A stretch of 64,000 nucleotides of DNA from a virus. The stretch is from positions 2,836 through 66,835 of IMG/VR virus record IMGVR_UViG_3300032038_000071; one strand, given 5' to 3'. Below are positions 17,184-43,371 of the stretch, piece by piece (within the stretch, counting starts at the first letter, position 1; each line of letters begins with the position of its first letter). Under the pieces are notes generated by a model. It ran no database searches. It was not told the origin of the DNA and saw nothing but the letters and a program-made list of their open reading frames with translations. A program made the position numbers and the translations under genes.

Positions 17184-17849
17184 TTATCTGTAACAGAAAT
17201 ACACACCATCTATACAGTCATACACACCACTACCCTGTGAGAAGTTAGCTTGAAAGACTACATTGTTAGGTAGCCATGAGCCATTTTCAAGTAAGTCTTT
17301 AGCTATCTCATAACAACGCTGACTTGGTGTTCTGTCATAATTACCATCCCATGTGCAAGCATATTGACCTGACTGAAATATAACTCCGTATATTGTATCT
17401 GGAAATTCAGAGTGATTTACTCTATTAAGAACAACTGAACCAACGTAATATCTTGTTGTATCACTGCACCAATCTGCGCCAGCTTCGCCATTAATAAGAT
17501 GAGCAAGCATTTCAACTTCATCATACGAATAATCGGTGCTTACAGATTTTGCAACATAGTAGGTTGTTTCTGTAATTTCTTCTGTTGTAAGTTTATCTCC
17601 AATTTCTATCTCAACAATATCTGTAGATTCGGGATTAATGAACTGTACTGTTGTTGCTTCTGTAGTTAATTCCTCAGATATTTCTTCTGTTGATAATTCT
17701 TCTTCTGCAAAACAATTATTAATTACGTTCCAATTAGCATATTCATAATCTGTAGTGTTATGTGCTACAACATCTGCTACACACGCCCCTATGTATAATA
17801 ATGCACATCCACTTACAACATATAAACTTGTTATGAGCTTCTTTTTCAT
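17184..17849 (-). CDS. SleB-type cell-wall hydrolase (Hydrolase_2 family) with a lipoprotein signal peptide
   Basis: MKKKLITSLYVVSGC is a signal peptide plus lipobox. The C-terminal LINGEAGADW...VVLNRVNHSEFPDTIYGVIFQSGQYA matches the SleB/CwlJ catalytic domain. Confidence 0.75.
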   Translation of the reverse strand: MKKKLITSLYVVSGCALLYIGACVADVVAHNTTDYEYANWNVINNCFAEEELSTEEISEELTTEATTVQFINPESTDIVEIEIGDKLTTEEITETTYYVAKSVSTDYSYDEVEMLAHLINGEAGADWCSDTTRYYVGSVVLNRVNHSEFPDTIYGVIFQSGQYACTWDGNYDRTPSQRCYEIAKDLLENGSWLPNNVVFQANFSQGSGVYDCIDGVYFCYR

Positions 17850-35161: not shown

Positions 35162-37885
35162 CTAACTTAATAAGAAGTCAAGTACCTCTGACTTACTCAT
35201 ATCAACCTTACCATCCACAAGAGCATCTGACATAGCACCTTTCTTCTGTACAAGTTCATGGATTCTTTCGTCTATTGTATCCTTACACATAAGGTTGTAG
35301 ATTGTAACATTATGCTTCTGTCCTACTCTGTGGCATCTATCTGTTGCTTGGTCGTATAATGCTCTGTTCCAAGGTTCGTCAAGAAATATCTCAACTGTTC
35401 CTGCGGTGAGAGTGAGACCTGTACCCATAGCGCCAATTGTACCTATAATGTATTTACACTCAGGATTATTCTGAAAATGATTTACATTTACCTGTCTATC
35501 AGCATCGTTTGTCTGACCAGTAATGACAACACCTTTATACTTCTTTGCAAGTCTGGCTCTAATAACATCTGTCATCTGCGTCCAGTTAGAAAAGATAACA
35601 ACTTTCTTTCCATTCTCTATTGCTTCTTCAACAAGTTCTTCCATTCTATCAAGCTTTGCACTTTCCTGTATCTTGCTTGAAAGAATACCTGTATAACCTG
35701 TAGCTTGTCTCATTCTGATTAATTCTGCAAGTGGATTAGGTGCTGTCTTTATGTTATCAATATTACTCTGAATATCTGCTGTGACCTCTTTATAGATAAC
35801 AGCTTGCTTTGGTGTCATATCAACGTATTCATCTATGTATGTCTTTTCCGGTAAGTCTAATACATCATCTTTAAGTCTACGTAACATTATGTCATTAAGT
35901 CTTTCCTGTAACTCGTCAAGATTCTTATAGCCGACTACTTCATATCCGCCATAGCCACCCATTACACAATAATGATTTTTAAATCTGTAAAAGGCATTCT
36001 TTTCATAACCAAGCCATTTAAGAATTATGTATAAGTCCATAGGCTGATTCATAAGTGGTGTACCTGTCATAGCTATACGACATTCAGATTGTAATTTAAG
36101 AATACCTTTGCCCTGCTGACTTGATGGGTTCTTACACTTATGTATCTCATCAATAGCTATAATACCTATCTCACCCGATTTGCATTTATTTGCGATTTCA
36201 GACACGATTTTTTCATCACGCATAGTTTCTACATTCGTTATAATAAAATACGCTCCAAGTGCTTCCAAATTGCAAATATCAGTATATTTATCTGCATTAG
36301 ACCCTATAACAATTTTATCGTTCTTAATTCTCTGTCCAAGAATGTATGCTTCCTCATCTGAATGTGTATGAATTTCATTAACCCAGTTCCATTTAAGACC
36401 ATTAACTCCGCATACTATAAGACAATGCTTGTATCCTTTCTGTAATTTCTTTGCTACTGCTATATCAATGACTTGTTTTGTGTTATGAGTTACTACAAAA
36501 TGCTCGGCTAAATACAGATGGTCATTACTATCAACTGTAATACACTTTGCGTCTGCATTATCAATCTTTTCAATAGCAATTATATTTCTTCTTGTCTTGA
36601 AATGTCGGTCTTTCAATAATGATTTTTTACGAGTAAGAGTACAATACAGTTGAGGTCTATCAAATTTAATAGTCAGATTGTAACTTGTTCCCGTAATCTT
36701 TCCATCATAACCACACTCACTTTCAGAGTAACTTACAATACCACCTAAACTTTCAACTAAAAATCTTACATCTTCACATAACTGTTTTGATACAGTTGAA
36801 TAAGTTAATAAATTATCAGATGTTGCATAGCCATCCGTATCAATAAGTCCTTGTAATACTTCTGTTCTAACTGCGATTGAATTGTACTTGTATATATCTG
36901 GAATGAATTTTGTGTGAGAGTTTCTTCCATGTAAATCTAAATCAGTAAGTGCTTTTCTTATTATATTAGTTTTGCCTTGTATATCAGTACCTTTAATATA
37001 ATATTCAATATCTCCCATACTTGGTGCTGAATACAACTCATAGCCTTTAGGTAATCTTGAATTGATATTATCTACCATTTCACTATCAATCGTAGTAAAT
37101 CTTATTGTATGGGTAGTAATTCCACCATCACCTAACAATGCACCTAATACATAAGGCTCTATTGGCACTTCTTGATATTCAAATTGAACAGGTTTACATC
37201 TATCTATGTAATATTTGTAACTTCCAGAACCTTCGCTGAATAGATTATCTTTTCGTACATTTCCGAATTGGTCTTTCTTAGTAAACCATTCTGTATCAAC
37301 TACTTTAGTTCCATGTTGGTCATGTATCTGCCATAAATGGTCTTTACAACAATCAATACTTACTCCATCAGAAAATGTAATACGATACATTTCAACATTC
37401 TTATGATAGTATGTGGCAGTTACTTTAGTTGGGCTACCGTCTTTACCAAATACATAATCTCCAACTTCAATATCTTTCATTTCCTTGTACCCTGTTGGAG
37501 TATATATTTTAGTATTTAATGCAAGTGCTTTTCCAAGACCCTGTTCATCACCTAACAGCCATCTGTCGTACTTCAATCCAAAATTAAACCCATCAATCTG
37601 ATGCTCAAAAGGTTTTGTTTTGAAGTTGAAGTTAGCTGGTGTTTCAGCTTTCTTATCTTCAAATGATATGTACTTGCCTGAAATATCAAAATCAAAGTCC
37701 TGTAAGTTATCTATAAGATACTGTATCTTTTTTACAGGTATTTCCCACTCTTTTGTATCTTTGTTCCAATATCTTGTGGGCAGTTCTCTTACTGTATCAA
37801 CCACTTTCTGGTTGTAGTCAAATGATACAAAAGCTGAATAATCATCATCTATATTTTTAGAGTTTTTAATCTGTATCGTTATCAT
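35162..37885 (-). CDS. SNF2-family helicase interrupted by an intein (558-aa extein plus 349-aa intein)
   Basis: Motif I is split as DEQGLGK / TKQVIDIA. Other motifs seen are IAIDEIHKCKNP (motif II), MTGTPLMN (motif III) and QATDRCHRVGQKHNVTIY (motif VI). Confidence 0.9.
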   Translation of the reverse strand: MITIQIKNSKNIDDDYSAFVSFDYNQKVVDTVRELPTRYWNKDTKEWEIPVKKIQYLIDNLQDFDFDISGKYISFEDKKAETPANFNFKTKPFEHQIDGFNFGLKYDRWLLGDEQGLGKALALNTKIYTPTGYKEMKDIEVGDYVFGKDGSPTKVTATYYHKNVEMYRITFSDGVSIDCCKDHLWQIHDQHGTKVVDTEWFTKKDQFGNVRKDNLFSEGSGSYKYYIDRCKPVQFEYQEVPIEPYVLGALLGDGGITTHTIRFTTIDSEMVDNINSRLPKGYELYSAPSMGDIEYYIKGTDIQGKTNIIRKALTDLDLHGRNSHTKFIPDIYKYNSIAVRTEVLQGLIDTDGYATSDNLLTYSTVSKQLCEDVRFLVESLGGIVSYSESECGYDGKITGTSYNLTIKFDRPQLYCTLTRKKSLLKDRHFKTRRNIIAIEKIDNADAKCITVDSNDHLYLAEHFVVTHNTKQVIDIAVAKKLQKGYKHCLIVCGVNGLKWNWVNEIHTHSDEEAYILGQRIKNDKIVIGSNADKYTDICNLEALGAYFIITNVETMRDEKIVSEIANKCKSGEIGIIAIDEIHKCKNPSSQQGKGILKLQSECRIAMTGTPLMNQPMDLYIILKWLGYEKNAFYRFKNHYCVMGGYGGYEVVGYKNLDELQERLNDIMLRRLKDDVLDLPEKTYIDEYVDMTPKQAVIYKEVTADIQSNIDNIKTAPNPLAELIRMRQATGYTGILSSKIQESAKLDRMEELVEEAIENGKKVVIFSNWTQMTDVIRARLAKKYKGVVITGQTNDADRQVNVNHFQNNPECKYIIGTIGAMGTGLTLTAGTVEIFLDEPWNRALYDQATDRCHRVGQKHNVTIYNLMCKDTIDERIHELVQKKGAMSDALVDGKVDMSKSEVLDFLLS
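36482..37528 (-). mobile_element. intein (HINT domain plus double-LAGLIDADG homing endonuclease), class-3-like
   Basis: It spans residues 120-468 of the SNF2 ORF. It starts ALALNTKIYTP and ends VVTHN followed by Thr+1. LAGLIDADG motifs are YVLGALLGDGG and VLQGLIDTDGY. The Ala1, Trp185 (DHLW), Cys448 (AKCITV) and Thr466 (THN) pattern is present. Confidence 0.85.
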
Positions 37886-38243: not shown

Positions 38244-38272
38244 ATTGTACTACACATTTATAATCTTGTCAA
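38244..38272 (-). promoter_or_regulatory. sigma-A-type promoter (TTGACA-N17-TACAAT) with the AATGTGTAGTACAAT box
   Basis: Minus strand reads TTGACAAGATTATAAATGTGTAGTACAAT, immediately after the terminator at 38274-38307. Confidence 0.65.
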
Positions 38273-38273
38273 C

Positions 38274-38307
38274 AAAAAAATCGTCACTCGCTGAAAAGTG
38301 ACGATTT
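38274..38307 (-). terminator. strong intrinsic terminator closing the orphan cassette
   Basis: AAATCGTCACT (38278-38288) pairs with AGTGACGATTT (38297-38307). On the minus strand it is followed by TTTTTTT. Confidence 0.8.
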
Positions 38308-38311
38308 TACG

Positions 38312-38662
38312 TTATATATTAAGTTGTTTAATCATAGAAACAATAGCATCTCTTTCAGCTTGGGTATCTGTACTACTATATAATGTATGTATAAATTCAC
38401 TCAACTCTTTACATACATTGTATATAGAATTGATTACTGCTGATTCCGTTACTTCTTGCATCTGATATTTACGTTTGATTTCTCTATATAATTGATATTG
38501 AGGTAGTATGTCATTGAGTTCCTTTTCAACTCTGTTTGAGTTCTTACTATAATAAGCATTTTTTATGATATACATATCTGCTAATATGCGACAGTTTTCC
38601 AATGTTGTATCACTGTTTTCAAGGTCTTGTATAGTATCTTCAATCTCCTGTATATCTAACAT
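38312..38662 (-). CDS. hypothetical protein (116 aa, helical)
   Basis: GGAGGTG SD upstream. It is the last gene before the terminator. Confidence 0.65.
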   Translation of the reverse strand: MLDIQEIEDTIQDLENSDTTLENCRILADMYIIKNAYYSKNSNRVEKELNDILPQYQLYREIKRKYQMQEVTESAVINSIYNVCKELSEFIHTLYSSTDTQAERDAIVSMIKQLNI

Positions 38663-38813
38663 TCAGCACCTCCAATATCTTATCCAACTTCTTATTCTGT
38701 TCTTGCAGAATATCATGGATTTCTGCTATCTGCTTATTGTTGGTGTCAATCGTCTGTAGCTGTAAACAGAAATCCATAATATTCACAAGGTCAATCATGC
38801 CAAGATTATTCAT
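38640..38813 (-). CDS. hypothetical protein (57 aa, below the ORF-track cutoff)
   Basis: A TAATG overlap with the upstream stop. It fills the gap 38663-38812 and translates to MNNLGMIDLVNIMDFCLQLQTIDTNNKQIAEIHDILQEQNKKLDKILEVL... Confidence 0.4.
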   Translation of the reverse strand: MNNLGMIDLVNIMDFCLQLQTIDTNNKQIAEIHDILQEQNKKLDKILEVLNVRYTGD

Positions 38814-39265
38814 TAATCTTCTATCTGACTAATACATCTTTCCATAGCCTGACGAGTTTTTTCATCTGGTGCTGACTGCATCATAGAACGAAGCTGGTTT
38901 ATCATACGCTTTGAATCACGGGAATATCCACTGTCACGACTATAGTCATTGGAATAATTAGAATATCCATCACGGCTATAACCATCATTAGCATATCCGT
39001 CATAACTCATTCCACTCGAATAACCATTGTCGCTACTATATCTCCCCATGCTGTCACGTTTTGCATTTCTACCTCTTCCACGTGCATTAGAATATCCATC
39101 GTTAGAATATCCACTTTCTTCCATCTGCATTATCTCATCAATGTAGTGGATAGAAGCTGTAAGTTTTTCAATTAACTCCAAAGAACCGGAAGTTACTTGA
39201 CCCTTGCCTGCAAGTTTATCAAGTTCTTCACAAAGCATATCTCGGAGTTCTTCCATCTTCTTCAT
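38813..39265 (-). CDS. low-complexity protein with a GYS-repeat core (150 aa)
   Basis: The N- and C-terminal ends are helical. The middle part is SGYSNDGYSNARGRGR...DNGYSSGMSYDGYANDGYSRDGYSNYSNDYSRDSGYSRDS. Confidence 0.65.
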   Translation of the reverse strand: MKKMEELRDMLCEELDKLAGKGQVTSGSLELIEKLTASIHYIDEIMQMEESGYSNDGYSNARGRGRNAKRDSMGRYSSDNGYSSGMSYDGYANDGYSRDGYSNYSNDYSRDSGYSRDSKRMINQLRSMMQSAPDEKTRQAMERCISQIED

Positions 39266-39281
39266 AATGTTTACCTCCTGT

Positions 39282-39716
39282 CTATGCTACCCTATTGATT
39301 ACTATGTTTGCGTTCTGTACATCTATAGGCTGTGTACTGCTATTCTCGATTGCAATAGTTGTACAGCAACCTTTAGGTACTGTAATGTAGGTAAATTCAG
39401 CCACGTTCCAGAAATCTCCAACTGCCGCCGGTGTCACGATTGCTCTACTTGTTGGTACTTGCTCACCGTCTATAGTGAGTGTTACCTGTATAGGTTCAAC
39501 TGTTCCACCTTCTGCTATTGCTATGTTAGAACCAAACATAACTGAATATCTCGCAAAGCAACCTGTAGGATTATTAACTATGCCTCGTAAAGTGAAGATA
39601 CCCGAACCAGCACGATGAAAAACATATCCGCTGTTGCAAGGTATAATATCCTCAGTAAACAAAACATTCTGATTAGCAGGAATTGTCTGTAAAGCGTTTG
39701 CTACATACTCTGCCAT
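39282..39716 (-). CDS. BclA C-terminal-domain-like (C1q/TNF-like jelly-roll) protein, putative
   Basis: 144 aa from the SD-supported ATG. It has an all-beta pattern and a C-terminal ...IDVQNANIVINRVA that resembles the ...ASIIIEKVA ending of exosporium BclA-type domains. Confidence 0.4.
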   Translation of the reverse strand: MAEYVANALQTIPANQNVLFTEDIIPCNSGYVFHRAGSGIFTLRGIVNNPTGCFARYSVMFGSNIAIAEGGTVEPIQVTLTIDGEQVPTSRAIVTPAAVGDFWNVAEFTYITVPKGCCTTIAIENSSTQPIDVQNANIVINRVA

Positions 39717-39728
39717 AGTCAACACCTC

Positions 39729-40577
39729 CTAAAAGCTACCGTTGCAACCACATCCGCAACCTGTATTATTATTGCACTGGAATATAGGCTGTCTGCCATA
39801 TACAGGAACAGTAGGAACAGGACAGTTAGAAAGTCTGTTATAAAGCTGGTCAACCTCATTGTTAAGACCCTGTGCTATAAATGCGTTCTGTGCTGTCTGA
39901 CTTGCCGCAAGATTAGCCATTGTAAGCTGTCTCTCAAGGTCTGCAATCTTTGTATTCTTGCCATCCAGTTCAAGCTGGCAAAGTTTATCAATGATTGTCT
40001 GTGTTCCTCTTGTCTGACTGTCTATAATATCCCTTGTGTTCATCATAGACTGTGTTCTATCAGCACAATTCTCTGTAGCTACTGTGTACTTGAGGTCTGC
40101 AATACCAAGTCTGTTTTCACAGCAACAATCGGCAAGCTGTGACTGAACACCATTAAAGCCCTGATTCATGGCTGTCTGTGTGGCAAAAGCTGTCTGCATA
40201 TTAGCCATCTGTCTTGCGTTTGCACCCTGTTCTACACCTGCAAAACCGTTGCAAAGTGCCATCTGAATATCACTGCCTGTATTGCAAAGCTGTGTTGACA
40301 GATTGTTTACTCCGTCTCTTATGGATGTGATGTTGTCATTAAGCATCTGATTCTGGAATCCTTCACTTGTAATGTTAGCTTGGTTCATCCATGGATATAT
40401 TGAATTATATCCACCACCAAAGCCACCATTACCGCCCCAACCATTACCGTTGAAAGCGAAAAGGAAAAGAACGAGAAGCCACCAAGCACCGTCTCCACCA
40501 AAACCACCGAAACCATTGTTACCGGTTACTGCGGCTACATCTGCGGCGGAAAGTCCGCCATTTTCTGCTAAAGACAT
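39729..40577 (-). CDS. Gly/Asn-rich, 12-Cys membrane-anchored protein (282 aa)
   Basis: GFGGFGGDGAWWLLVLFLFAFNGNGWGGNGGFGGG is one hydrophobic helix flanked by Gly-rich tracts. The rest is Q/N-rich with CCC and a C-terminal CNNNTGCGCGCNGSF. Confidence 0.65.
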   Translation of the reverse strand: MSLAENGGLSAADVAAVTGNNGFGGFGGDGAWWLLVLFLFAFNGNGWGGNGGFGGGYNSIYPWMNQANITSEGFQNQMLNDNITSIRDGVNNLSTQLCNTGSDIQMALCNGFAGVEQGANARQMANMQTAFATQTAMNQGFNGVQSQLADCCCENRLGIADLKYTVATENCADRTQSMMNTRDIIDSQTRGTQTIIDKLCQLELDGKNTKIADLERQLTMANLAASQTAQNAFIAQGLNNEVDQLYNRLSNCPVPTVPVYGRQPIFQCNNNTGCGCGCNGSF

Positions 40578-40618
40578 AAGTTTGTCCTCCTTTGTGATTT
40601 ATTTATAATTTTGCAAAA

Positions 40619-40816
40619 TTATTTCAGTAGGGATTGCATTTCATTTGCCATCTGTGACAGTCTGTTAAACTGCTCTTGTGACATTTTTCCAGAATTAAGA
40701 AGTTCTTGCACTTGCTGTTTAGGGTCTCCCTTAAAGCTATTTCTGAATTGCTGAAACTGTGCAAGCATATTATTCTGTGGTTTACGATTGAATAGATTAT
40801 AGATAGGATTAGCCAT
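40619..40816 (-). CDS. Q-rich helical small protein (65 aa)
   Basis: It translates to MANPIYNLFNRKPQNNMLAQFQQFRNSFKGDPKQQVQELLNSGKMSQEQFNRLSQMANEMQSLLK, with an 8-nt overlap with the upstream gene. Confidence 0.6.
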   Translation of the reverse strand: MANPIYNLFNRKPQNNMLAQFQQFRNSFKGDPKQQVQELLNSGKMSQEQFNRLSQMANEMQSLLK

Positions 40817-41228
40817 TGTTATTCCTCCTTGTCATAGACCTGTTATTATGATTGTCAGATTGCGTTTTAAGAATGATTTGTTCAAGTCGCTTATCTAATT
40901 CAGCTTTAGTTACATAATCGTCTAAATTGACGTTTGGTGCGCTTGTAGCTGTATCTGTGTGTTGCTCTGCTGTGCGTTCTGAATAGTCAAATATTCTTAA
41001 AGGCATTGGCATACCACTTGTGTCGGTTGACTTGATGTAGAATACAGAATTTTCACTGTCCATAAGTAAGACTGAATTTCCTGCACCAACTAAATAACTC
41101 TTTGCACCTGCTTCACCTTGTACCCAGACTATTCCACTCTGCTGATTAGTCTGCGGTGGTTGATATACTTGTGGCATTTGTTGATACTGTGGGTACTGAT
41201 AGTTCATCGGAAAATAATTGTAAGCCAT
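40809..41228 (-). CDS. protein with a Q/P/Y-rich N-terminus and a small beta domain (139 aa)
   Basis: MAYNYFPMNYQYPQYQQMPQVYQPPQTNQQ is followed by GIVWVQGEAGAKSYLVGAGNSVLLMDSENSVFYIKSTD. Confidence 0.6.
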   Translation of the reverse strand: MAYNYFPMNYQYPQYQQMPQVYQPPQTNQQSGIVWVQGEAGAKSYLVGAGNSVLLMDSENSVFYIKSTDTSGMPMPLRIFDYSERTAEQHTDTATSAPNVNLDDYVTKAELDKRLEQIILKTQSDNHNNRSMTRRNNNG

Positions 41229-41233
41229 TTCTC

Positions 41234-41611
41234 TTACTCCTTTCTTTGCCAGTAATAGGTTACAACTTCATCGCCACTGTCCCAACTGTCATAATAATTT
41301 CCGTCTATTGCGGTGACAACGTGTGTTCCTGTACATAAGATATAATTGCCTTGCGGATAATCTATGCAGAAATCTCTGACTGTATAACAGTCCGGACAAG
41401 TGTTAGGTATAATATGTCTGCTATAATCATTGTTGCGTAAGAAGTTACCCCATACATTATTAGCAGATGGCATATCAGATAACATAAGTCCTTGTATTGC
41501 AAGTCTGATATAGACTTCTTCCCAAGACATTCCTAAAGATTTTGAGATAGCACGAATAACGCAGTCACCGACATATACGCTGTGAGGATTAGGGTTATAT
41601 CTAATGAACAT
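41234..41611 (-). CDS. papain-fold (C39-like) cysteine peptidase, putative
   Basis: 125 aa. Cys lies in VGDCVIRAIS, His in GTHVVTAIDG and Asp in YDSWDSG, in the order and spacing expected of C39-like peptidases. Confidence 0.4.
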   Translation of the reverse strand: MFIRYNPNPHSVYVGDCVIRAISKSLGMSWEEVYIRLAIQGLMLSDMPSANNVWGNFLRNNDYSRHIIPNTCPDCYTVRDFCIDYPQGNYILCTGTHVVTAIDGNYYDSWDSGDEVVTYYWQRKE

Positions 41612-41650
41612 CGTGCTATCTCCTTTCTCTTTATAGACTTACAATACAAT

Positions 41651-41682
41651 AAAAAAGAGACTGTAGATTATACAGTCTCTTT
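41651..41682 (-). terminator. strong intrinsic terminator between the sigma-like gene and the orphan cassette
   Basis: AAGAGACTGTA (41655-41665) pairs with TACAGTCTCTT (41671-41681) around a 5-nt loop. The minus strand continues with TTTTTTATTG. Confidence 0.75.
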
Positions 41683-41708: not shown

Positions 41709-41918
41709 TTACAGCACTTTTATCATCTTGTCCTTGATGCGCCTGATTAACTTACTCACCTTTGCTTCTGAAATATTCATCTGTAATGCTATATAGGTAT
41801 TTGATTTGTTCTTTGCTCTGAGGTTGAAACATTCCAATTCCTCATCAGAGAAGTTACAACTATCTCTAAAATATTGCAATTCAAATTCAACAAAATCTTG
41901 AATAGGCGGTAATTTCAT
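41709..41918 (-). CDS. sigma-70 region-4-like / LuxR-type HTH regulator (69 aa)
   Basis: FSDEELECFNLRAKNKSNTYIALQMNISEAKVSKLIRRIKDKM is a region-4-type HTH. It lies at the end of the tail operon. Confidence 0.5.
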   Translation of the reverse strand: MKLPPIQDFVEFELQYFRDSCNFSDEELECFNLRAKNKSNTYIALQMNISEAKVSKLIRRIKDKMIKVL

Positions 41919-41928
41919 ATATCAACTC

Positions 41929-43371
41929 CTAGTCTGTAAAGCTAAGAACATACGTTATCTTCATGGTCTTATCTGCTGTCTTTGTAACTTGTTCATCCAA
42001 GTTATCTATTGTTGCAAGATAGTTGGTTGTCTTAATCATATTAAACCATTCGCTGTATGACGATTCCCATATAGCACTTACTAACTTATTGTCATCCAAT
42101 ATCTGTGAGACCATGTTGTAGCTCGGAACATTACTGTTGGTTAGATATACTGCACGAGCGCCCATATCAGCTTTCATGCCAGCAAAGTATGCCACCTCTT
42201 CAGTCGGATAGCTAAATCCTAGATACGTGCATCCGAATGTCGCTGTCACCGTCGTGATGTCAGCATTATTCGTGATGTCCTCGAAGTAATGAATGCTATT
42301 GTTTGAATCTCCCGCATTGTATCGCTGAATAAGAATTGTGTCTGTCGAGAATGCTATGCCTGGAATAAGGAAGTCAAGCTGTTCGCCTGCCGGATTCGCT
42401 ACTGTAAATGCAGATATTGTGTTGTCCGGATTGATTCGAACAACCTGCAACGTCGCTCCGTTTTCAAGTCTGCCCCATTGACCTTGTCCGTAGCCAGGAT
42501 ATCCAATGCCTGCAATCATGTAATAGTATTCGCCCTGTTTTAAGTACCACGATGGCTCTCTGCCGTTTAATGCACTTACAAATGCTGACGGTAAACTTAT
42601 CTCTGTTTCTGTAACAGGTAAGTATTCAGAGCCACTACCGCTTGCATATGCTGGATAGTTGTTTCTTAAATCAAGCTTTGACATTGGAACTTTGTATGTC
42701 TTTAGCTTAATTTTTCCTGTAGCACTCATGTGTTCTGCTGTATGGTCAGTTGTTGGAACTAAATTGTAATAGTCAACAAGTGTAAGTGTTGAATTTGTCC
42801 ATGAACCCCTTACAATTCTCTGTCTTATACTTGGCATATTATCTACACCAACAGCTTGAGGTGTTCCACCAAGAGCAAAGTCACTTCTCTTTGTTGATTT
42901 AGCAAGTAAGCTTGTTGAATTTCCTTCACCTATATAGCCATGATTTGCTGAGGTAAGGCAAACACAGTTTATGTTTCCGTTTGCCTGCGTAGTTGTAAAA
43001 TCCCATACCATCTTGTATTTACCATCAGATAGCCAACCAGATTCTGATGAGTTATAAGAACCCATTTCTGTGACAGAATCATTTGAGGTAACATCATATA
43101 CTCCATTGGCTATCATCTTAACACCAGATGGGCATATTATATTGTTTGCATTTTCTGTGATAGCTGTGTCAAAAGCAAGCACTCCGCCCAATAAAGTAGG
43201 AATAAGACTTTGACGAACAGCATCCATATGAATCGGAGATATATTGAACATTCCCAAATCGTTAAGATATAGCTGAATGGCATTTGTAACCATGTTGTCA
43301 TCTTCGTAGCGCTCAACTTCGCCAGTTTTAACATTCGTTAATTCTATGGTTGAATGTCCTTTTATTTTCAT
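41929..43371 (-). CDS. tail/baseplate-associated structural protein (480 aa)
   Basis: It lies after the fibre gene within the late operon. It is beta-rich with no enzymatic motif seen. Confidence 0.55.
   Translation of the reverse strand: MKIKGHSTIELTNVKTGEVERYEDDNMVTNAIQLYLNDLGMFNISPIHMDAVRQSLIPTLLGGVLAFDTAITENANNIICPSGVKMIANGVYDVTSNDSVTEMGSYNSSESGWLSDGKYKMVWDFTTTQANGNINCVCLTSANHGYIGEGNSTSLLAKSTKRSDFALGGTPQAVGVDNMPSIRQRIVRGSWTNSTLTLVDYYNLVPTTDHTAEHMSATGKIKLKTYKVPMSKLDLRNNYPAYASGSGSEYLPVTETEISLPSAFVSALNGREPSWYLKQGEYYYMIAGIGYPGYGQGQWGRLENGATLQVVRINPDNTISAFTVANPAGEQLDFLIPGIAFSTDTILIQRYNAGDSNNSIHYFEDITNNADITTVTATFGCTYLGFSYPTEEVAYFAGMKADMGARAVYLTNSNVPSYNMVSQILDDNKLVSAIWESSYSEWFNMIKTTNYLATIDNLDEQVTKTADKTMKITYVLSFTD

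What the first reader, a model, noticed from the sequence alone, without database searches (positions are those of the whole stretch)
38312..41611. Terminator-bracketed 8-gene cassette of low-complexity Gly/Cys/Tyr/Gln-rich proteins plus a C39-like peptidase
An 8-gene minus-strand block lies between the tail operon and the replication region. It is delimited by two strong intrinsic terminators (41651-41682 and 38274-38307). It has none of the TTGACA-N17-TAnAAT promoters seen elsewhere in the window. Its products are as follows. (1) A 125-aa protein with the Cys (GDCVIRA), His (GTHVVTAIDG), Asp (DSWDSG) order of papain/C39-like peptidases. (2) A protein with a Q/P/Y-rich N-terminus. (3) A 65-aa Q-rich helical peptide. 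(4) A 282-aa protein with one hydrophobic helix embedded in Gly/Asn tracts (GGDGAWWLLVLFLFAFNGNGWGG, reminiscent of tiny YjcZ-type sporulation membrane proteins), 12 Cys including CCC, and a C-terminal CGCGC. (5) A 144-aa all-beta protein whose ending ...NANIVINRVA resembles BclA-type C1q/TNF-like exosporium domains. (6) A protein with a (D)GYS(N/R) repeat core. (7, 8) Two small helical proteins. A 14-bp palindrome AATTTTGCAAAATT (40607-40620) sits between genes 3 and 4. None of these looks like a canonical virion, lysis or replication protein. The composition recalls spore coat or exosporium proteins, or secreted cross-linked proteins. The cassette could be a virion or host-surface decoration module, a spore-associated module, or a peptidase-processed secreted product.
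Basis: partly seen in the sequence, partly recalled or inferred. Interest (0 to 1): 0.7.

Follow-up and report, generated by a model that had tools for sequence, protein, structure and literature searches.

The report
Widespread unannotated gut-phage late-gene cassette
This block is a real, terminator-bounded operon that recurs in the same gene order in many unrelated gut and rumen phages; it centres on a spore-surface-like (TNF/C1q-fold) trimer protein and a cysteine-rich protein with a glycine-rich hydrophobic tip, and none of its eight products matched a family of known function in the profile libraries searched.

Summary
There are eight minus-strand ORFs (41611-38312) between two strong intrinsic terminators, and an independent gene call on an identical 66.8-kb contig gives the same eight genes.

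Comparison shows that g1-g6 plus g8 form a conserved, co-linear module in about 45 of 72 related loci. g7 is unique to this window. A second variant lacks the Cys/His/Asp protein g1 and ends instead with an HExxH metallopeptidase-like gene. g4+g5 are the near-universal core.

The families are large and unannotated:
- g4: at least 8000 clusters at 90% identity.
- g5: more than 3000.
- g1: about 2400.

Specific results:
- g5 folds with high confidence as a TNF/C1q jelly roll. Its closest matches are the Bacillus exosporium proteins F-BclA, ExsFA/BxpB and BclA.
- g1 is not a detectable C39 or other known peptidase. Its conserved Cys/His/Asp layout is compatible with a papain-like fold.
- g4 shows a marginal resemblance to the fusion-peptide and helix region of influenza HA2. 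It also has a homologue in a crAss-like phage.
- In relatives the module usually follows the holin/endolysin genes and a tiny sigma-region-4/GerE-type regulator.
- In 27 relatives a covarying structured RNA plus a terminator precedes g5.

Function remains unknown. My best guess is a proteolytically matured, self-assembling, membrane-associated late complex.

The parts
41709..41918 (-). g0: a 69-aa stand-alone GerE/LuxR-type (sigma-70 region-4-like) HTH protein, encoded just upstream of the cassette. It is the likely dedicated regulator.
   Evidence: Pfam GerE E 3.6e-6, above the curated cutoff. A homologue (13 loci) or an analogous roughly 70-aa Sigma70_r4-like protein (c8, 17 loci) sits directly upstream of g1.
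41654..41682 (-). Intrinsic terminator hairpin plus T-run, lying between g0 and g1.
   Evidence: -16.8 kcal/mol, z -4.8. A hairpin plus T-run precedes g1 in at least 17 of 41 related loci, against 11% of random segments.
41234..41611 (-). g1: a 125-aa alpha+beta protein. Invariant residues are N6, N8, G15-D16-C17, C72-P73-x-C75, H97, D108, W110, S112 and G113. It is a putative small cysteine peptidase or thiol enzyme.
   Evidence: 2408 clusters. AF2 pLDDT is 94.1, with Cys17 at a helix N-terminus and His97 at a strand start. No significant PDB fold match and no Pfam peptidase hit. Matches phrog_3754.
40809..41228 (-). g2: a 139-aa protein with a Q/P/Y-rich N-terminus, a conserved small domain (WVQGEAGAK...YIKS.D.SGMP) and a C-terminal helix.
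   Evidence: Matches phrog_21718. Present in 56 ORFs across loci, in both cassette variants. No PDB or Pfam relative.
40619..40816 (-). g3: a 65-aa Q/N-rich protein, probably a helical hairpin.
   Evidence: Matches phrog_22984, E 8e-21. Conserved in about 40 loci. In variant 2 an analogous roughly 80-aa protein (c11) takes its place.
40607..40620 (.). 14-bp palindrome AATTTTGCAAAATT. Probably not a functional element.
   Evidence: The window has 8 perfect 14-bp palindromes against about 5 expected. The RNA has no significant fold, z +0.9.
39729..40577 (-). g4: a 282-aa core protein. From the N-terminus it has a conserved peptide (LSAADVAAVTGNN), a GFGG-rich stretch, an 8-13-residue hydrophobic run and a GWGG-rich stretch. 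A Q/N-rich, probably helical region follows. Conserved cysteines are CCC (151-153), C171, C274 and C276.
   Evidence: (at least 8000 clusters). The family profile gives a marginal match to influenza HA2 residues 7-108 (E 0.005; shuffle control). A crAss-like phage homologue aligns with hhalign probability 99%.
39282..39716 (-). g5: a 144-aa stand-alone TNF/C1q-like jelly-roll protein and the second core component. In this window it follows g4 after 12 nt, and the g4 stop codon overlaps the g5 ribosome-binding site.
   Evidence: AF2 pLDDT 93.6. Foldseek PDB hits are F-BclA-CTD 9h38 (E 1.6e-7), ExsFA 7r1m, BxpB 8d02 and BclA 1wck. BFVD relatives are stand-alone proteins in gut phages. There are 897 clusters at 50% identity, with no fusion among the 150 best listed.
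38813..39265 (-). g6: a 150-aa protein with an N-terminal helix, a (G/D)YS(N/R)/RG-rich low-complexity core containing an RDSMGRYS motif, and a C-terminal helix.
   Evidence: Found in about 45 loci. Variant 2 has an analogous protein, c6. No family match.
38640..38813 (-). g7: a 57-aa ORF that is not conserved.
   Evidence: No relative in 71 loci. It is called as a gene on the identical contig.
38312..38662 (-). g8: a 116-aa helical protein, the conserved last gene of the longer form of the cassette.
   Evidence: Falls in cluster 7, which has 22 ORFs, always directly after g6.
38277..38308 (-). Intrinsic terminator that closes the cassette.
   Evidence: -17.9 kcal/mol, z -3.9. A terminator-like hairpin follows g6/g8 in 27 of 43 related loci, against 11% of random segments.
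38244..38272 (-). Sigma-70-type promoter TTGACA-17-TACAAT belonging to the next (replication) operon. It marks the outer boundary of the cassette.
   Evidence: 11 of 12 matches; sequence shown.

Best explanation
The block is one copy of a portable, late-expressed accessory operon of gut and rumen phages. It is not a tail, capsid, lysis-enzyme or replication module.

Its obligate core has two proteins. g4 has a glycine-rich hydrophobic N-terminal tip, a Q/N-rich helical body and six conserved cysteines. g5 is a stand-alone TNF/C1q-fold protein, presumably a trimer, of the kind that builds the Bacillus exosporium anchor and nap.

I infer the following steps:
1. The proteins are made in the cytoplasm late in infection; none has a signal peptide.
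2. g4 associates with the cytoplasmic membrane through its hydrophobic tip. It recruits g5, perhaps through its conserved N-terminal peptide, much as the exosporium leader peptide docks into ExsF trimers.
3. The low-complexity partners g2, g3, g6 and g8 act as assembly or scaffold factors.
4. A small dedicated peptidase matures a component, most plausibly by trimming the g4 N-terminus. This peptidase is g1 here and an HExxH protein in the other variant.
5. The complex acts at or after lysis, on the cell envelope or in the released lysate.

What is shown: gene content, gene order, the terminator boundaries, the g5 fold, the conserved residues and the genomic context. What is inferred: assembly, membrane association, proteolytic maturation and timing.
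For: - The same gene order g1-g2-g3-g4-g5-g6(-g8) occurs in about 45 loci from unrelated phages: a Ceridwen-type siphovirus, SPbeta-like genomes of about 150 kb, and this 66-kb phage.
- g4 and g5 are adjacent in 64 of 71 loci.
- Two variants carry different peptidase-like genes, g1 (Cys/His/Asp) or c9 (HExxH; Pfam M78/SprT/DUF6782, weak). This argues that proteolysis is integral to the module.
- Terminators flank the module in relatives too.
- A small sigma-region-4/GerE-type HTH gene precedes it in at least 30 loci.
- The g5 fold matches exosporium proteins.
- g5 keeps 60-70% identity across phages with different tails and binned hosts. g5 is never fused to another domain among the 150 best of 897 family representatives. 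Both fit a conserved partner rather than a host-specific receptor.
- g4 has a conserved N-terminal peptide and conserved Cys.
- The commonest upstream neighbours are endolysins and holins, which places the module at the distal end of the late region.
- A dedicated structured 5' leader with a terminator before g5 in 27 loci implies regulated g4:g5 stoichiometry.
Against: - No experimental datum exists for any member.
- No multimer model could be run, so the g4-g5 contact is unsupported beyond adjacency.
- The g4 hydrophobic run (8-13 residues) is too short for a classical transmembrane helix, so membrane association is uncertain.
- g1 has no significant structural or profile match to any peptidase. 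Its invariant Cys17/C72/C75/His97 could instead bind zinc. It also occurs alone, away from any cassette, in Tsamsa-like Bacillus phages, GBK2 and Lak megaphages.
- g4 occurs without a recognisable g5 in a crAss-like phage.
- In this window and in the SPbeta-like loci the cassette is not next to lysis genes.
Confidence: 0.35

Rival explanations
1. Lysis or egress accessory. g4 is a membrane-active protein, functionally like a spanin or a class-I fusion protein. It has a proteolytically primed hydrophobic tip and a helical body, and g5 acts as its jelly-roll head. It carries out a final membrane or envelope disruption step after holin and endolysin have acted.
For: - Among 150 ORFs within 2.5 kb upstream of the cassette in 44 loci, the commonest Pfam families are endolysin domains (about 15 ORFs) and holins (about 11).
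- In variant 2 an LL-H-like holin lies directly upstream.
- The crAss-like g4 homologue lies 3 kb from the endolysin.
- The g4 profile's only coherent PDB hits are the influenza HA2 fusion-peptide and helix region (E 0.005). That score is reached by 0 of 3000 full shuffles and 1 of 3000 segment-preserving shuffles.
- Conserved Cys recall the disulfide-linked spanins (background knowledge).
- A peptidase is present in both variants.
Against: - Most hosts are monoderm, so there is no outer membrane to fuse.
- Heptad periodicity is inconsistent across g4 homologues.
- g4 has no C-terminal anchor and no lipoprotein partner.
- This window has no holin or endolysin next to the cassette; the only wall hydrolase is at 17184-17849.
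- The HA2 score is only about 20 bits.
- Six to seven genes is a large set for a lysis accessory.
Confidence: 0.2
2. Virion decoration or accessory adhesin module. g5 trimers, with g4 as a stalk, attach to particles and give an exosporium-nap-like or receptor-binding surface.
For: - The TNF/C1q fold is also used by phage receptor-binding knobs: the A-1(L) short tail fibre CBD 8ke9 and the phi812 central spike knob 9eul. It also occurs in collagen+C1q proteins of phages and giant viruses.
- In this window the cassette directly follows the tail genes.
- The absence of signal peptides fits cytoplasmic assembly onto virions.
Against: - The module moves between phages with unrelated capsid and tail modules, and between contigs labelled sipho-, myo- and podovirus.
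- g5 is 60-70% identical across different hosts, unlike receptor-binding proteins.
- g5 has no attachment or stalk domain and is never fused among the 150 best of 897 family representatives.
- The module is separated from the structural operon by a terminator, and usually by the lysis genes as well.
Confidence: 0.17
3. Peptidase-processed, lysis-released product such as a bacteriocin or toxin-like factor. g4 carries a double-glycine-type leader that the peptidase removes. The mature Gly-rich hydrophobic protein is released at lysis and acts on other cells.
For: - The type-A g4 N-terminus (Y/L)S(L/A)AD(I/V)AA(A/V)TG(N/G) matches the LSxxELxxIxGG leader pattern at positions -12, -11, -8, -7, -4 and -2 (the consensus is from background knowledge).
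- Gly-rich hydrophobic peptides are typical of some bacteriocins.
- A small sigma-like regulator next to a holin recalls clostridial toxin and bacteriocin loci such as TcdR/UviA (background knowledge).
Against: - About a third of g4 proteins have a different, proline-containing N-terminus (VMPVAP) with no GG site.
- The best type-A leaders occur in variant 2, which lacks g1.
- g1 is not a C39 peptidase by profile or by fold.
- There is no ABC exporter and no immunity gene.
- At 282 aa with a conserved helical body, g4 is far larger than leader-type bacteriocins.
Confidence: 0.08
4. Moron-type host-conversion or superinfection-exclusion module that acts at the membrane of the infected or lysogenic cell.
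For: - It is terminator-bracketed and portable, and sits beyond the lysis genes where morons lie.
- TAnAAT -10-like elements follow the upstream hairpin in 8 of 22 loci, against 12% of controls.
Against: - All 66 genome-collection loci are MAG or uncultured contigs of phage-like size, and none is from an isolate genome.
- Ceridwen was seen only in the lytic cycle (PMC7372960).
- Known exclusion systems are single genes.
- This window has no promoter of its own for the cassette.
Confidence: 0.08
5. Spore-associated module. The products join or mimic spore coat or exosporium layers of sporulating hosts.
For: - g5 is closest to the exosporium proteins BclA, ExsFA and BxpB.
- The regulator is GerE-type.
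- The partners are Cys-rich and Q-rich, recalling coat proteins.
- Many gut Clostridia sporulate (background knowledge).
Against: - Ceridwen's host, Butyrivibrio fibrisolvens, is not a spore-former (my own background knowledge, not tested here).
- A g4 homologue occurs in a Crassvirales phage, an order whose hosts are Bacteroidales (background knowledge).
- No match to the Pfam BclA_C family, to the NCBIfam exosporium-leader model or to the YjcZ model.
- No cellular (non-phage) homologues were found.
Confidence: 0.04

Closest known systems
Bacillus exosporium anchor and nap proteins: ExsFA/BxpB, BclA C-terminal domain, F-BclA (PDB 7r1m, 8d02, 1wck, 9h38)
   Same: g5 has the same TNF/C1q jelly-roll fold and about the same size (TM 0.65-0.73, E 1e-7 to 1e-5). 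Like ExsFA it is a stand-alone domain. ExsF trimers dock conserved N-terminal leader peptides of partner proteins, and the BclA N-terminus is proteolytically trimmed (PMC12357932). Both facts suggest an analogous g5 / g4-N-terminus / peptidase relationship.
   Different: Sequence identity is 12-19%, with no match to Pfam BclA_C. There is no collagen-like stalk, no exosporium leader motif and no ExsY/CotY-type basal-layer protein. The genes are carried by phages, including a phage of Butyrivibrio fibrisolvens, which to my knowledge is not a spore-former.
Class I viral fusion proteins (influenza HA2) and phage spanins
   Same: g4 has a Gly-rich, aromatic, hydrophobic segment near its N-terminus followed by a long polar helical region. 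There is marginal profile similarity to HA2 residues 7-108. A protease gene is available for priming, and a jelly-roll partner could serve as the head. In relatives the module sits beside the holin and endolysin genes, as spanin genes do. Cysteines are conserved.
   Different: The score is only about 20 bits. There is no C-terminal membrane anchor and no lipoprotein partner. The heptad signal is inconsistent. Hosts are mostly monoderm. The hydrophobic segment is preceded by a 20-30-residue leader whose cleavage has not been shown.
Double-glycine leader peptides with C39 peptidase (class II bacteriocin maturation)
   Same: g1 has the Cys...His...Asp order, and type-A g4 has a leader-like N-terminal motif ending in TG(N/G).
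   Different: There is no PF03412 match, no fold match to C39 structures and no ABC transporter. Many g4 proteins lack the motif. The putative substrate is a 282-aa protein rather than a peptide.
Phage morons and late accessory operons beyond the lysis module
   Same: It is a terminator-bounded, portable unit at the distal end of the late region, with its own small regulator gene in many phages.
   Different: It has six to eight co-linear genes conserved across about 45 loci, seemingly in virulent or unintegrated phages. There is no evidence of expression from a prophage.

Membership tests
Peptidase C39 (bacteriocin-processing) | Match to the Pfam Peptidase_C39 profile (PF03412) | tested here: not met
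   No hit at E <= 1 for g1 or for any of 44 family members.
Peptidase C39 (bacteriocin-processing) | Papain-like fold superposable on solved C39 domains | tested here: not met
   Foldseek against PDB with the pLDDT 94 model gives no hit at E <= 0.001. The best is Josephin-2 at E 0.16, TM 0.47.
Peptidase C39 (bacteriocin-processing) | Catalytic Cys, His and Asp in that order | tested here: met
   C17, H97 and D108 are invariant in 44 sequences. Cys17 lies at a helix N-terminus and His97 at a strand start. Catalysis itself was not tested.
Peptidase C39 (bacteriocin-processing) | Fused to or encoded beside an ABC exporter, with a GG-leader substrate | tested here: not met
   No ABC transporter occurs in or near the cassette in any locus. 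A GG-like motif is present in only some g4 proteins.
TNF/C1q superfamily (BclA_C-like) | Ten-strand jelly-roll fold of about 130-150 residues | tested here: met
   AF2 pLDDT 93.6, all-beta. 105 PDB matches at E <= 0.001, led by F-BclA, ExsFA, BxpB and BclA and followed by EDA, C1q and 4-1BBL.
TNF/C1q superfamily (BclA_C-like) | Sequence-profile membership (Pfam BclA_C / C1q) | tested here: not met
   No Pfam hit for g5 at E <= 1 other than a chance TagH_SH3 match. phmmer against PDB gives nothing relevant.
TNF/C1q superfamily (BclA_C-like) | Homotrimer | not testable with these tools
   No multimer prediction was available.
BclA-type exosporium glycoprotein | N-terminal exosporium leader plus collagen-like GXY repeats before the C1q domain | tested here: not met
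   g5 is the domain alone, 144 aa. The 150 best of 897 family representatives are all 81-196 aa and none carries an added domain. No NCBIfam hit.
YjcZ family sporulation protein | Match to the NCBIfam/TIGR tiny-TM model; size about 30-50 aa | tested here: not met
   No such hit for g4 at E <= 1. g4 is 282 aa.
Spanin / class I fusion-like membrane protein | Membrane-inserting hydrophobic segment | tested here: inconclusive
   A hydrophobic run is present, but it is 8-13 residues and flanked by Gly/Trp.
Spanin / class I fusion-like membrane protein | Extended coiled coil (heptad repeats) | tested here: inconclusive
   A crude heptad score is significant in the window's g4 (residues about 66-112, p about 0.01) but not in most homologues.
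Spanin / class I fusion-like membrane protein | Encoded in the lysis cassette beside holin and endolysin | tested here: inconclusive
   True for many relatives. Not true in this window or in the SPbeta-like loci.
Spanin / class I fusion-like membrane protein | Second membrane anchor or outer-membrane lipoprotein partner | tested here: not met
   No C-terminal hydrophobic segment in g4 and no lipobox protein in the cassette.
Moron | Own promoter and terminator; expressed from a prophage | tested here: inconclusive
   Terminators are present. A -10-like element is seen in only 8 of 22 relatives, and this window has no clear promoter. All carriers look unintegrated.
Phage tail fibre / receptor-binding protein | N-terminal virion-attachment or shaft domain; host-specific divergence of the tip | tested here: not met
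   g5 is stand-alone and 60-70% identical across phages of different binned hosts. Receptor-binding knobs are only secondary fold matches.

The most novel reading that the evidence does not exclude
g4 and g5 together form a prokaryotic-virus analogue of a class I fusion glycoprotein. In this reading a cassette-encoded peptidase removes the short g4 leader and exposes a glycine-rich fusion-peptide-like tip. The helical, cysteine-linked g4 body carries a jelly-roll g5 trimer as its head. The complex remodels or ruptures the host membrane at egress, or possibly at entry. A dedicated 5'-leader RNA sets the g4:g5 ratio in many phages. If so, this would be a previously unrecognised membrane-active machine, and one of the commonest accessory modules of gut phages.
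Probability: 0.12. Interest if true: 0.9.

Novelty: categorically new. Interest (0 to 1): 0.72.

Why it matters
The module is extremely common in gut and rumen viromes. At 90% identity, g4 has at least 8000 clusters, g5 more than 3000 and g1 about 2400. g5 alone has 897 clusters at 50% identity. Despite this, every component is listed as unknown function, and I found no paper describing the module.

It takes up 5-8% of some phage genomes, is strongly conserved and moves between unrelated phage lineages. It therefore probably provides a general function, whether in egress, envelope interaction, particle or lysate properties, or a self-assembling structure.

A cultured carrier exists: Butyrivibrio phage Ceridwen on B. 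fibrisolvens DSM 3071. This makes the question experimentally tractable.

The finding also places an exosporium-type TNF/C1q protein in phages outside any spore context. It further reveals a candidate new cis-regulatory RNA.

Tried and rejected
- **Near-identical DNA in the GenBank phage collection:** none found.
- **Pfam, NCBIfam and PADLOC on all eight proteins:** nothing above threshold. PHROGs gave only families of unknown function.
- **Sequence searches of PDB:** g1, g5 and the g2 and g1 profiles gave nothing useful. The g1 profile produced only a short CPxC, glutaredoxin-like stretch at E 0.16.
- **Rfam on the cassette:** no family.
- **Stop-codon readthrough fusing g4 to g5:** they are in frame in this window, separated by TAG plus one codon. 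I rejected the idea because only 20 of 64 loci keep the same frame, which is the chance level.
- **The 14-bp palindrome as an operator:** rejected as unexceptional.
- **Conserved hairpin-apex sequence upstream of g1 as an operator for the HTH protein:** not pursued. The similarity is confined to loci that share the upstream c8 gene, so it may simply be inherited.
- **Extended -10 promoter after the hairpin:** only weakly supported, with TGnTAnAAT in 1 of 22 loci.
- **Correlation of g4 N-terminal type with g5 sequence, as a test of docking:** no clear association on inspection.
- **g5-like identity of the gene after the crAss-like g4 homologue:** not supported, hhalign probability 0.3%.
- **Lysis function for the cassette itself in this window:** no evidence found. 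The only wall hydrolase found among the roughly 40 ORFs scanned is a signal-peptide-bearing SleB-like protein far away.

Full report
**1. What is in the window**

The window reads as one phage genome with every gene on the minus strand. Its landmarks are:
- a small terminase subunit at 794-1279;
- a replication block holding family A DNA polymerase, clamp and clamp loader, RecA, DnaB, primase and an intein-bearing SNF2 helicase;
- a structural block running from about 63.8 kb down to the last tail gene at 41929-43371.

An identical g4 protein lies on a 66.8-kb metagenome contig. An independent gene caller there finds the same eight genes (125, 139, 65, 282, 144, 150, 57 and 116 aa) between the 480-aa tail protein plus a 69-aa GerE-type protein and the SNF2 helicase.

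Both terminators are real. The upstream one is 41682-41654 (12 pairs, -16.8 kcal/mol, z -4.8). The downstream one is 38308-38277 (13 pairs, -17.9 kcal/mol, z -3.9). Only about 42 nt separate the upstream terminator from the g1 start codon, and they hold no sigma-70-type promoter. The 11/12 promoter at 38272-38244 belongs to the next operon.

The 14-bp palindrome is not remarkable. Enrichment for Gly, Cys, Tyr, Gln, Asn and Ser holds gene by gene.

**2. It is a conserved, portable module**

Megablast finds no close DNA relative among GenBank phages. tblastn, however, finds g4 and g5 side by side in Butyrivibrio virus Ceridwen and in about 20 uncultured gut phage records. In Ceridwen the homologues of g1-g5 lie in the same order, directly after the endolysin and a predicted terminator.

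The large protein collection shows how big the families are:
- g5: more than 3000 clusters at 90% identity;
- g1: 2408 clusters;
None carries a Pfam domain or an informative name.

A profile search of 1.84 billion representatives finds 897 g5 clusters at 50% identity. All of the 150 best listed are stand-alone proteins of 81-196 aa.

A scan of one genome per species returned 66 loci. All were MAG or uncultured contigs from gut or rumen. Most were binned as Clostridia, some obviously mis-binned, and none came from an isolate genome.

I ran tblastn and then clustered all ORFs around g5 in 72 loci. This gave three results.

- *Variant 1, about 45 loci.* The order is a small HTH gene, a hairpin, then g1-g2-g3-g4-g5-g6, with g8 following in 22 loci. 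g7 has no relative anywhere.
- *Variant 2, about 20 loci.* These are marked by a g4 that begins MFNxxxGYSLADIAAATG. The order is an LL-H-like holin, a short g2, an 80-aa analogue of g3, then g4, g5, a g6-like low-complexity protein and a 105-aa HExxH protein. That last protein gives weak Pfam hits to DUF6782, M78 and SprT and to phrog_87 'metallo-protease'. Variant 2 has no g1.
- *Core.* g4 and g5 are adjacent in 64 of 71 loci.

The carriers are unrelated. They include SPbeta-like genomes with YonG, YonJ, YonD and YonB on contigs of about 150 kb, siphoviruses with a Lactamase_B/CW_7 lysin, Ceridwen, and this 66-kb phage.

A g4 homologue also exists in the crAss-like phage cr273_1 (hhalign probability 99%). 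It lies 3 kb from the endolysin. The gene that follows it is not recognisably g5.

**3. Context and regulation**

I scanned 150 ORFs lying within 2.5 kb upstream of the module in 44 non-redundant loci. The commonest Pfam families were:
- endolysin domains (Peptidase_M15_3, Amidase_3, Phage_lysozyme2, GH25, Glucosaminidase, M23, SpoIID, ELLD), about 15 ORFs;
- holins (Phage_holin_4_1, holin_1, r1t, Dp-1, holin_5_2), about 11 ORFs.
The usual position is therefore the distal end of the late region, just past the lysis genes. This window and the SPbeta-like loci are exceptions.

Directly upstream of g1 lies either a g0 homologue (GerE-type, 13 loci) or a 70-aa Sigma70_r4-like protein (17 loci).

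Terminator-like hairpins precede g1 in at least 17 of 41 loci and follow g6/g8 in 27 of 43. The rate in random segments is 11%. A TAnAAT element lies between the hairpin and g1 in 8 of 22 loci, against 12% of controls.

The module is thus a separate transcription unit in most phages. How it is turned on in this window is not established. Candidates are read-through, an activator-dependent promoter, or g0.

**4. The proteins**

*g5.* AlphaFold2 with a 44-sequence alignment gives pLDDT 93.6 and an all-beta fold. Foldseek against PDB ranks the following first, at E 1.6e-7 to 1e-5 and TM 0.65-0.73:
- the F-BclA C-terminal domain (9h38);
- ExsFA (7r1m, 7r5i) and ExsF (9h3d);
- BxpB (8d02);
- BclA (1wck, 3tyj).
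After these come EDA, C1q-family proteins and 4-1BBL, and then two phage receptor-binding knobs (8ke9, 9eul). Against predicted viral structures the best matches are stand-alone 130-145-aa proteins of uncultured gut sipho-, myo- and podoviruses (TM 0.81-0.86). Collagen+C1q proteins follow.

By sequence profile, though, g5 is not a member of BclA_C. Its invariant residues include C27 and C117-C118.

*g1.* The model has pLDDT 94.1. Cys17 is the first residue of a helix, His97 is at the start of a strand and Asp108 is in the next strand. That is the topology of papain-like enzymes. All three residues, plus N6, N8, W110, S112 and G113, are invariant.

Even so, no PDB structure matches significantly; the best is Josephin-2 at E 0.16. 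No Pfam peptidase family is hit by any of 44 members.

An invariant C72-P73-x-C75 resembles a glutaredoxin CPxC motif. It could signal redox chemistry, or it could form a Cys3His zinc site together with C17 and H97. I could not measure distances in the model.

g1 homologues also occur alone, far from any cassette. They are found in Tsamsa-like Bacillus phages (some annotated 'putative peptidase'), in Geobacillus phage GBK2 and in Lak megaphages.

*g4.* The family shares the following parts, in order:
- a conserved N-terminal peptide of one of two types, either (L/M)(S/T)xAD(I/V)AA(V/A)TGN or VMPV(A/T)P;
- a GFGG-rich stretch;
- a strictly hydrophobic run of only 8-13 residues (WWIIILFLF);
- a GWGG-rich stretch;
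- a Q/N-rich region of about 200 residues;
- cysteines at CCC (151-153), C171, C274 and C276, each conserved in 82-93% of 57 homologues.

A profile of 36 diverse members, searched against PDB sequences, returns one coherent family. That family is influenza haemagglutinin HA2, residues 7-108, covering the second half of the fusion peptide and the start of the long helix, at E 0.005-0.05. The 20-bit score is reached by 0 of 3000 full shuffles and 1 of 3000 segment-preserving shuffles of HA2, so composition alone does not explain it. The score is still too weak to claim homology. A crude heptad test is positive for the window's g4 but not for most homologues.

*g2, g3, g6 and g8.*
- g2 has a prion-like Q/P/Y N-terminus, a conserved small domain and a C-terminal helix.
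- g3 is a Q/N-rich 65-aa protein.
- g6 has two helical ends around a [G/D]YS/RG core with an RDS(M/R)GRYS motif.
- g8 is helical.
None has a detectable relative of known function. None of the eight proteins has a signal peptide (direct reading).

**5. Interpretation**

The following points are established:
- This is an autonomous, portable operon of six to eight genes.
- It is strongly conserved: g5 keeps 60-70% identity and g1 55-65% across unrelated phages.
- It usually lies past the lysis genes.
- Its core is g4+g5.
- It always carries one of two unrelated peptidase-like genes.

Three things argue against a tail- or capsid-specific component and against a host-specific receptor binder: the conservation across hosts, the absence of fusions and the portability. 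They fit a self-contained complex or a universal target.

My preferred model, at confidence 0.35, has five parts:
1. A complex is assembled late in the cytoplasm.
2. g4 sits on the membrane through its hydrophobic tip.
3. g4 binds g5 trimers, perhaps through its conserved N-terminal peptide. ExsF trimers bind exosporium leader peptides in this way, and the BclA N-terminus is trimmed proteolytically (PMC12357932).
4. The low-complexity proteins act as assembly factors, and the peptidase matures a component.
5. The complex acts at or after lysis.

The main rivals are:
- a lysis or egress accessory of spanin-like or fusion-like type (0.20);
- a virion decoration or adhesin module (0.17);
- a leader-processed released factor (0.08);
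- a moron or exclusion system (0.08);
- a spore-associated module (0.04).

The spore reading is weakened by two points. To my knowledge (not tested here) Ceridwen's host does not form spores, and a g4 homologue occurs in a crAss-like phage.

**6. Side finding: a candidate regulatory RNA**

In this window g5 follows g4 after 12 nt, and the g4 stop codon overlaps the g5 ribosome-binding site. In about half of the relatives the gap is instead 100-170 nt and holds a conserved element.

The element consists of two short hairpins joined by an invariant UG(G/U)UC...GAU, often closed by a third stem. A GC-rich terminator hairpin with a T-run and a GAAAGGA ribosome-binding site follow.

The evidence for structure is as follows:
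- All 19 seed sequences fold the same way, with z-scores of -3.2 to -7.5.
- Of the 15 modelled pairs, 10 show compensatory changes.
- 96.8% of cells are paired, against 37-61% when the 3' partners are slid.
- No Rfam family matches at gathering thresholds.
- A covariance model finds 27 instances in 72 sources. All lie directly 5' of g5, including loci where g4 is absent or separated from g5. There is none in this window.

It looks like a new attenuator-type or riboswitch-type leader for g5-g6(-g8).

**7. Verdict**

The module matches no described system, and it is among the more abundant unknown gene sets of gut phages. Interest is 0.72.

Noticed in passing
Related loci, directly 5' of the g5 homologue, e.g. 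L018:4353-4475, L069:5231-5357, L022:7880-8003, L037:7862-8003. Absent from the window, where the g4-g5 gap is 12 nt at 39717-39728.: A conserved structured RNA of about 120 nt. It has two covarying hairpins joined by an invariant UG(G/U)UC...GAU, then an intrinsic terminator and a GAAAGGA ribosome-binding site. A covariance model finds 27 instances, all upstream of g5. There is no Rfam match. It is a candidate new attenuator or riboswitch-like leader.
   Followed up: partly
window 35162-37885 (-): The 907-aa SNF2-family helicase is interrupted by a LAGLIDADG-type intein-like insert...GLGKALALNTKIYTPTGY...LGALLGDGG...VVTHNTKQV... The identical contig carries Pfam SNF2-rel_dom, Helicase_C and a faint LAGLIDADG_3.
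   Followed up: no
window 17184-17849 (-): This is the only cell-wall hydrolase found among the roughly 40 window ORFs scanned. It is a SleB-like Hydrolase_2 protein with an N-terminal signal or lipoprotein-like sequence, and it sits among replication and recombination genes. No holin/endolysin pair follows the tail genes. Ceridwen has a similar Hydrolase_2 gene in its early region.
   Followed up: partly
window 41618-41632 versus 41654-41668: The 3' arm of the terminator upstream of g1 is 80% complementary over 15 nt to the g1 ribosome-binding-site region. Alternative pairing could couple termination to g1 translation, or the match could be a chance effect of purine-rich sequence.
   Followed up: no
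window 39723-39731: g4 and g5 are in the same reading frame, separated only by TAG and one codon, with a GTG at 39725. Readthrough would give a g4-g5 fusion. Only 20 of 64 related loci keep the same frame, which is the chance level.
   Followed up: yes
L075:4761-5660 (crAss-like phage cr273_1 gp13): This g4 homologue contains an in-frame TAG. That fits the TAG recoding known in some Crassvirales (background knowledge). The next two genes are a 113-aa beta-rich protein and a 116-aa acidic/basic low-complexity protein, loosely mirroring g5 and g6.
   Followed up: partly
L055:5457-5522: An Rfam DUF3800-VIII RNA (48 bits, above the gathering score) lies between the holin gene and the g0-like HTH gene, just upstream of the cassette.
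   Followed up: no
L072 (Bacillus phage Izhevsk 9583-9978) and L073 (Geobacillus phage GBK2 26471-26860): g1 homologues occur as solitary genes in early-looking regions. In Izhevsk the gene lies next to a Ser/Thr kinase and near an Ocr-like anti-restriction gene. The g1 family therefore has a life outside the cassette.
   Followed up: partly
Upstream of g1 in L012, L021, L039, L040 and L069: The terminator hairpins share a similar apex, GTTyAC-TTGATT-GTrAAC, in loci that also share the c8 sigma-region-4-like gene. This could be an operator for that protein, or it could simply be inherited with the gene.
   Followed up: no
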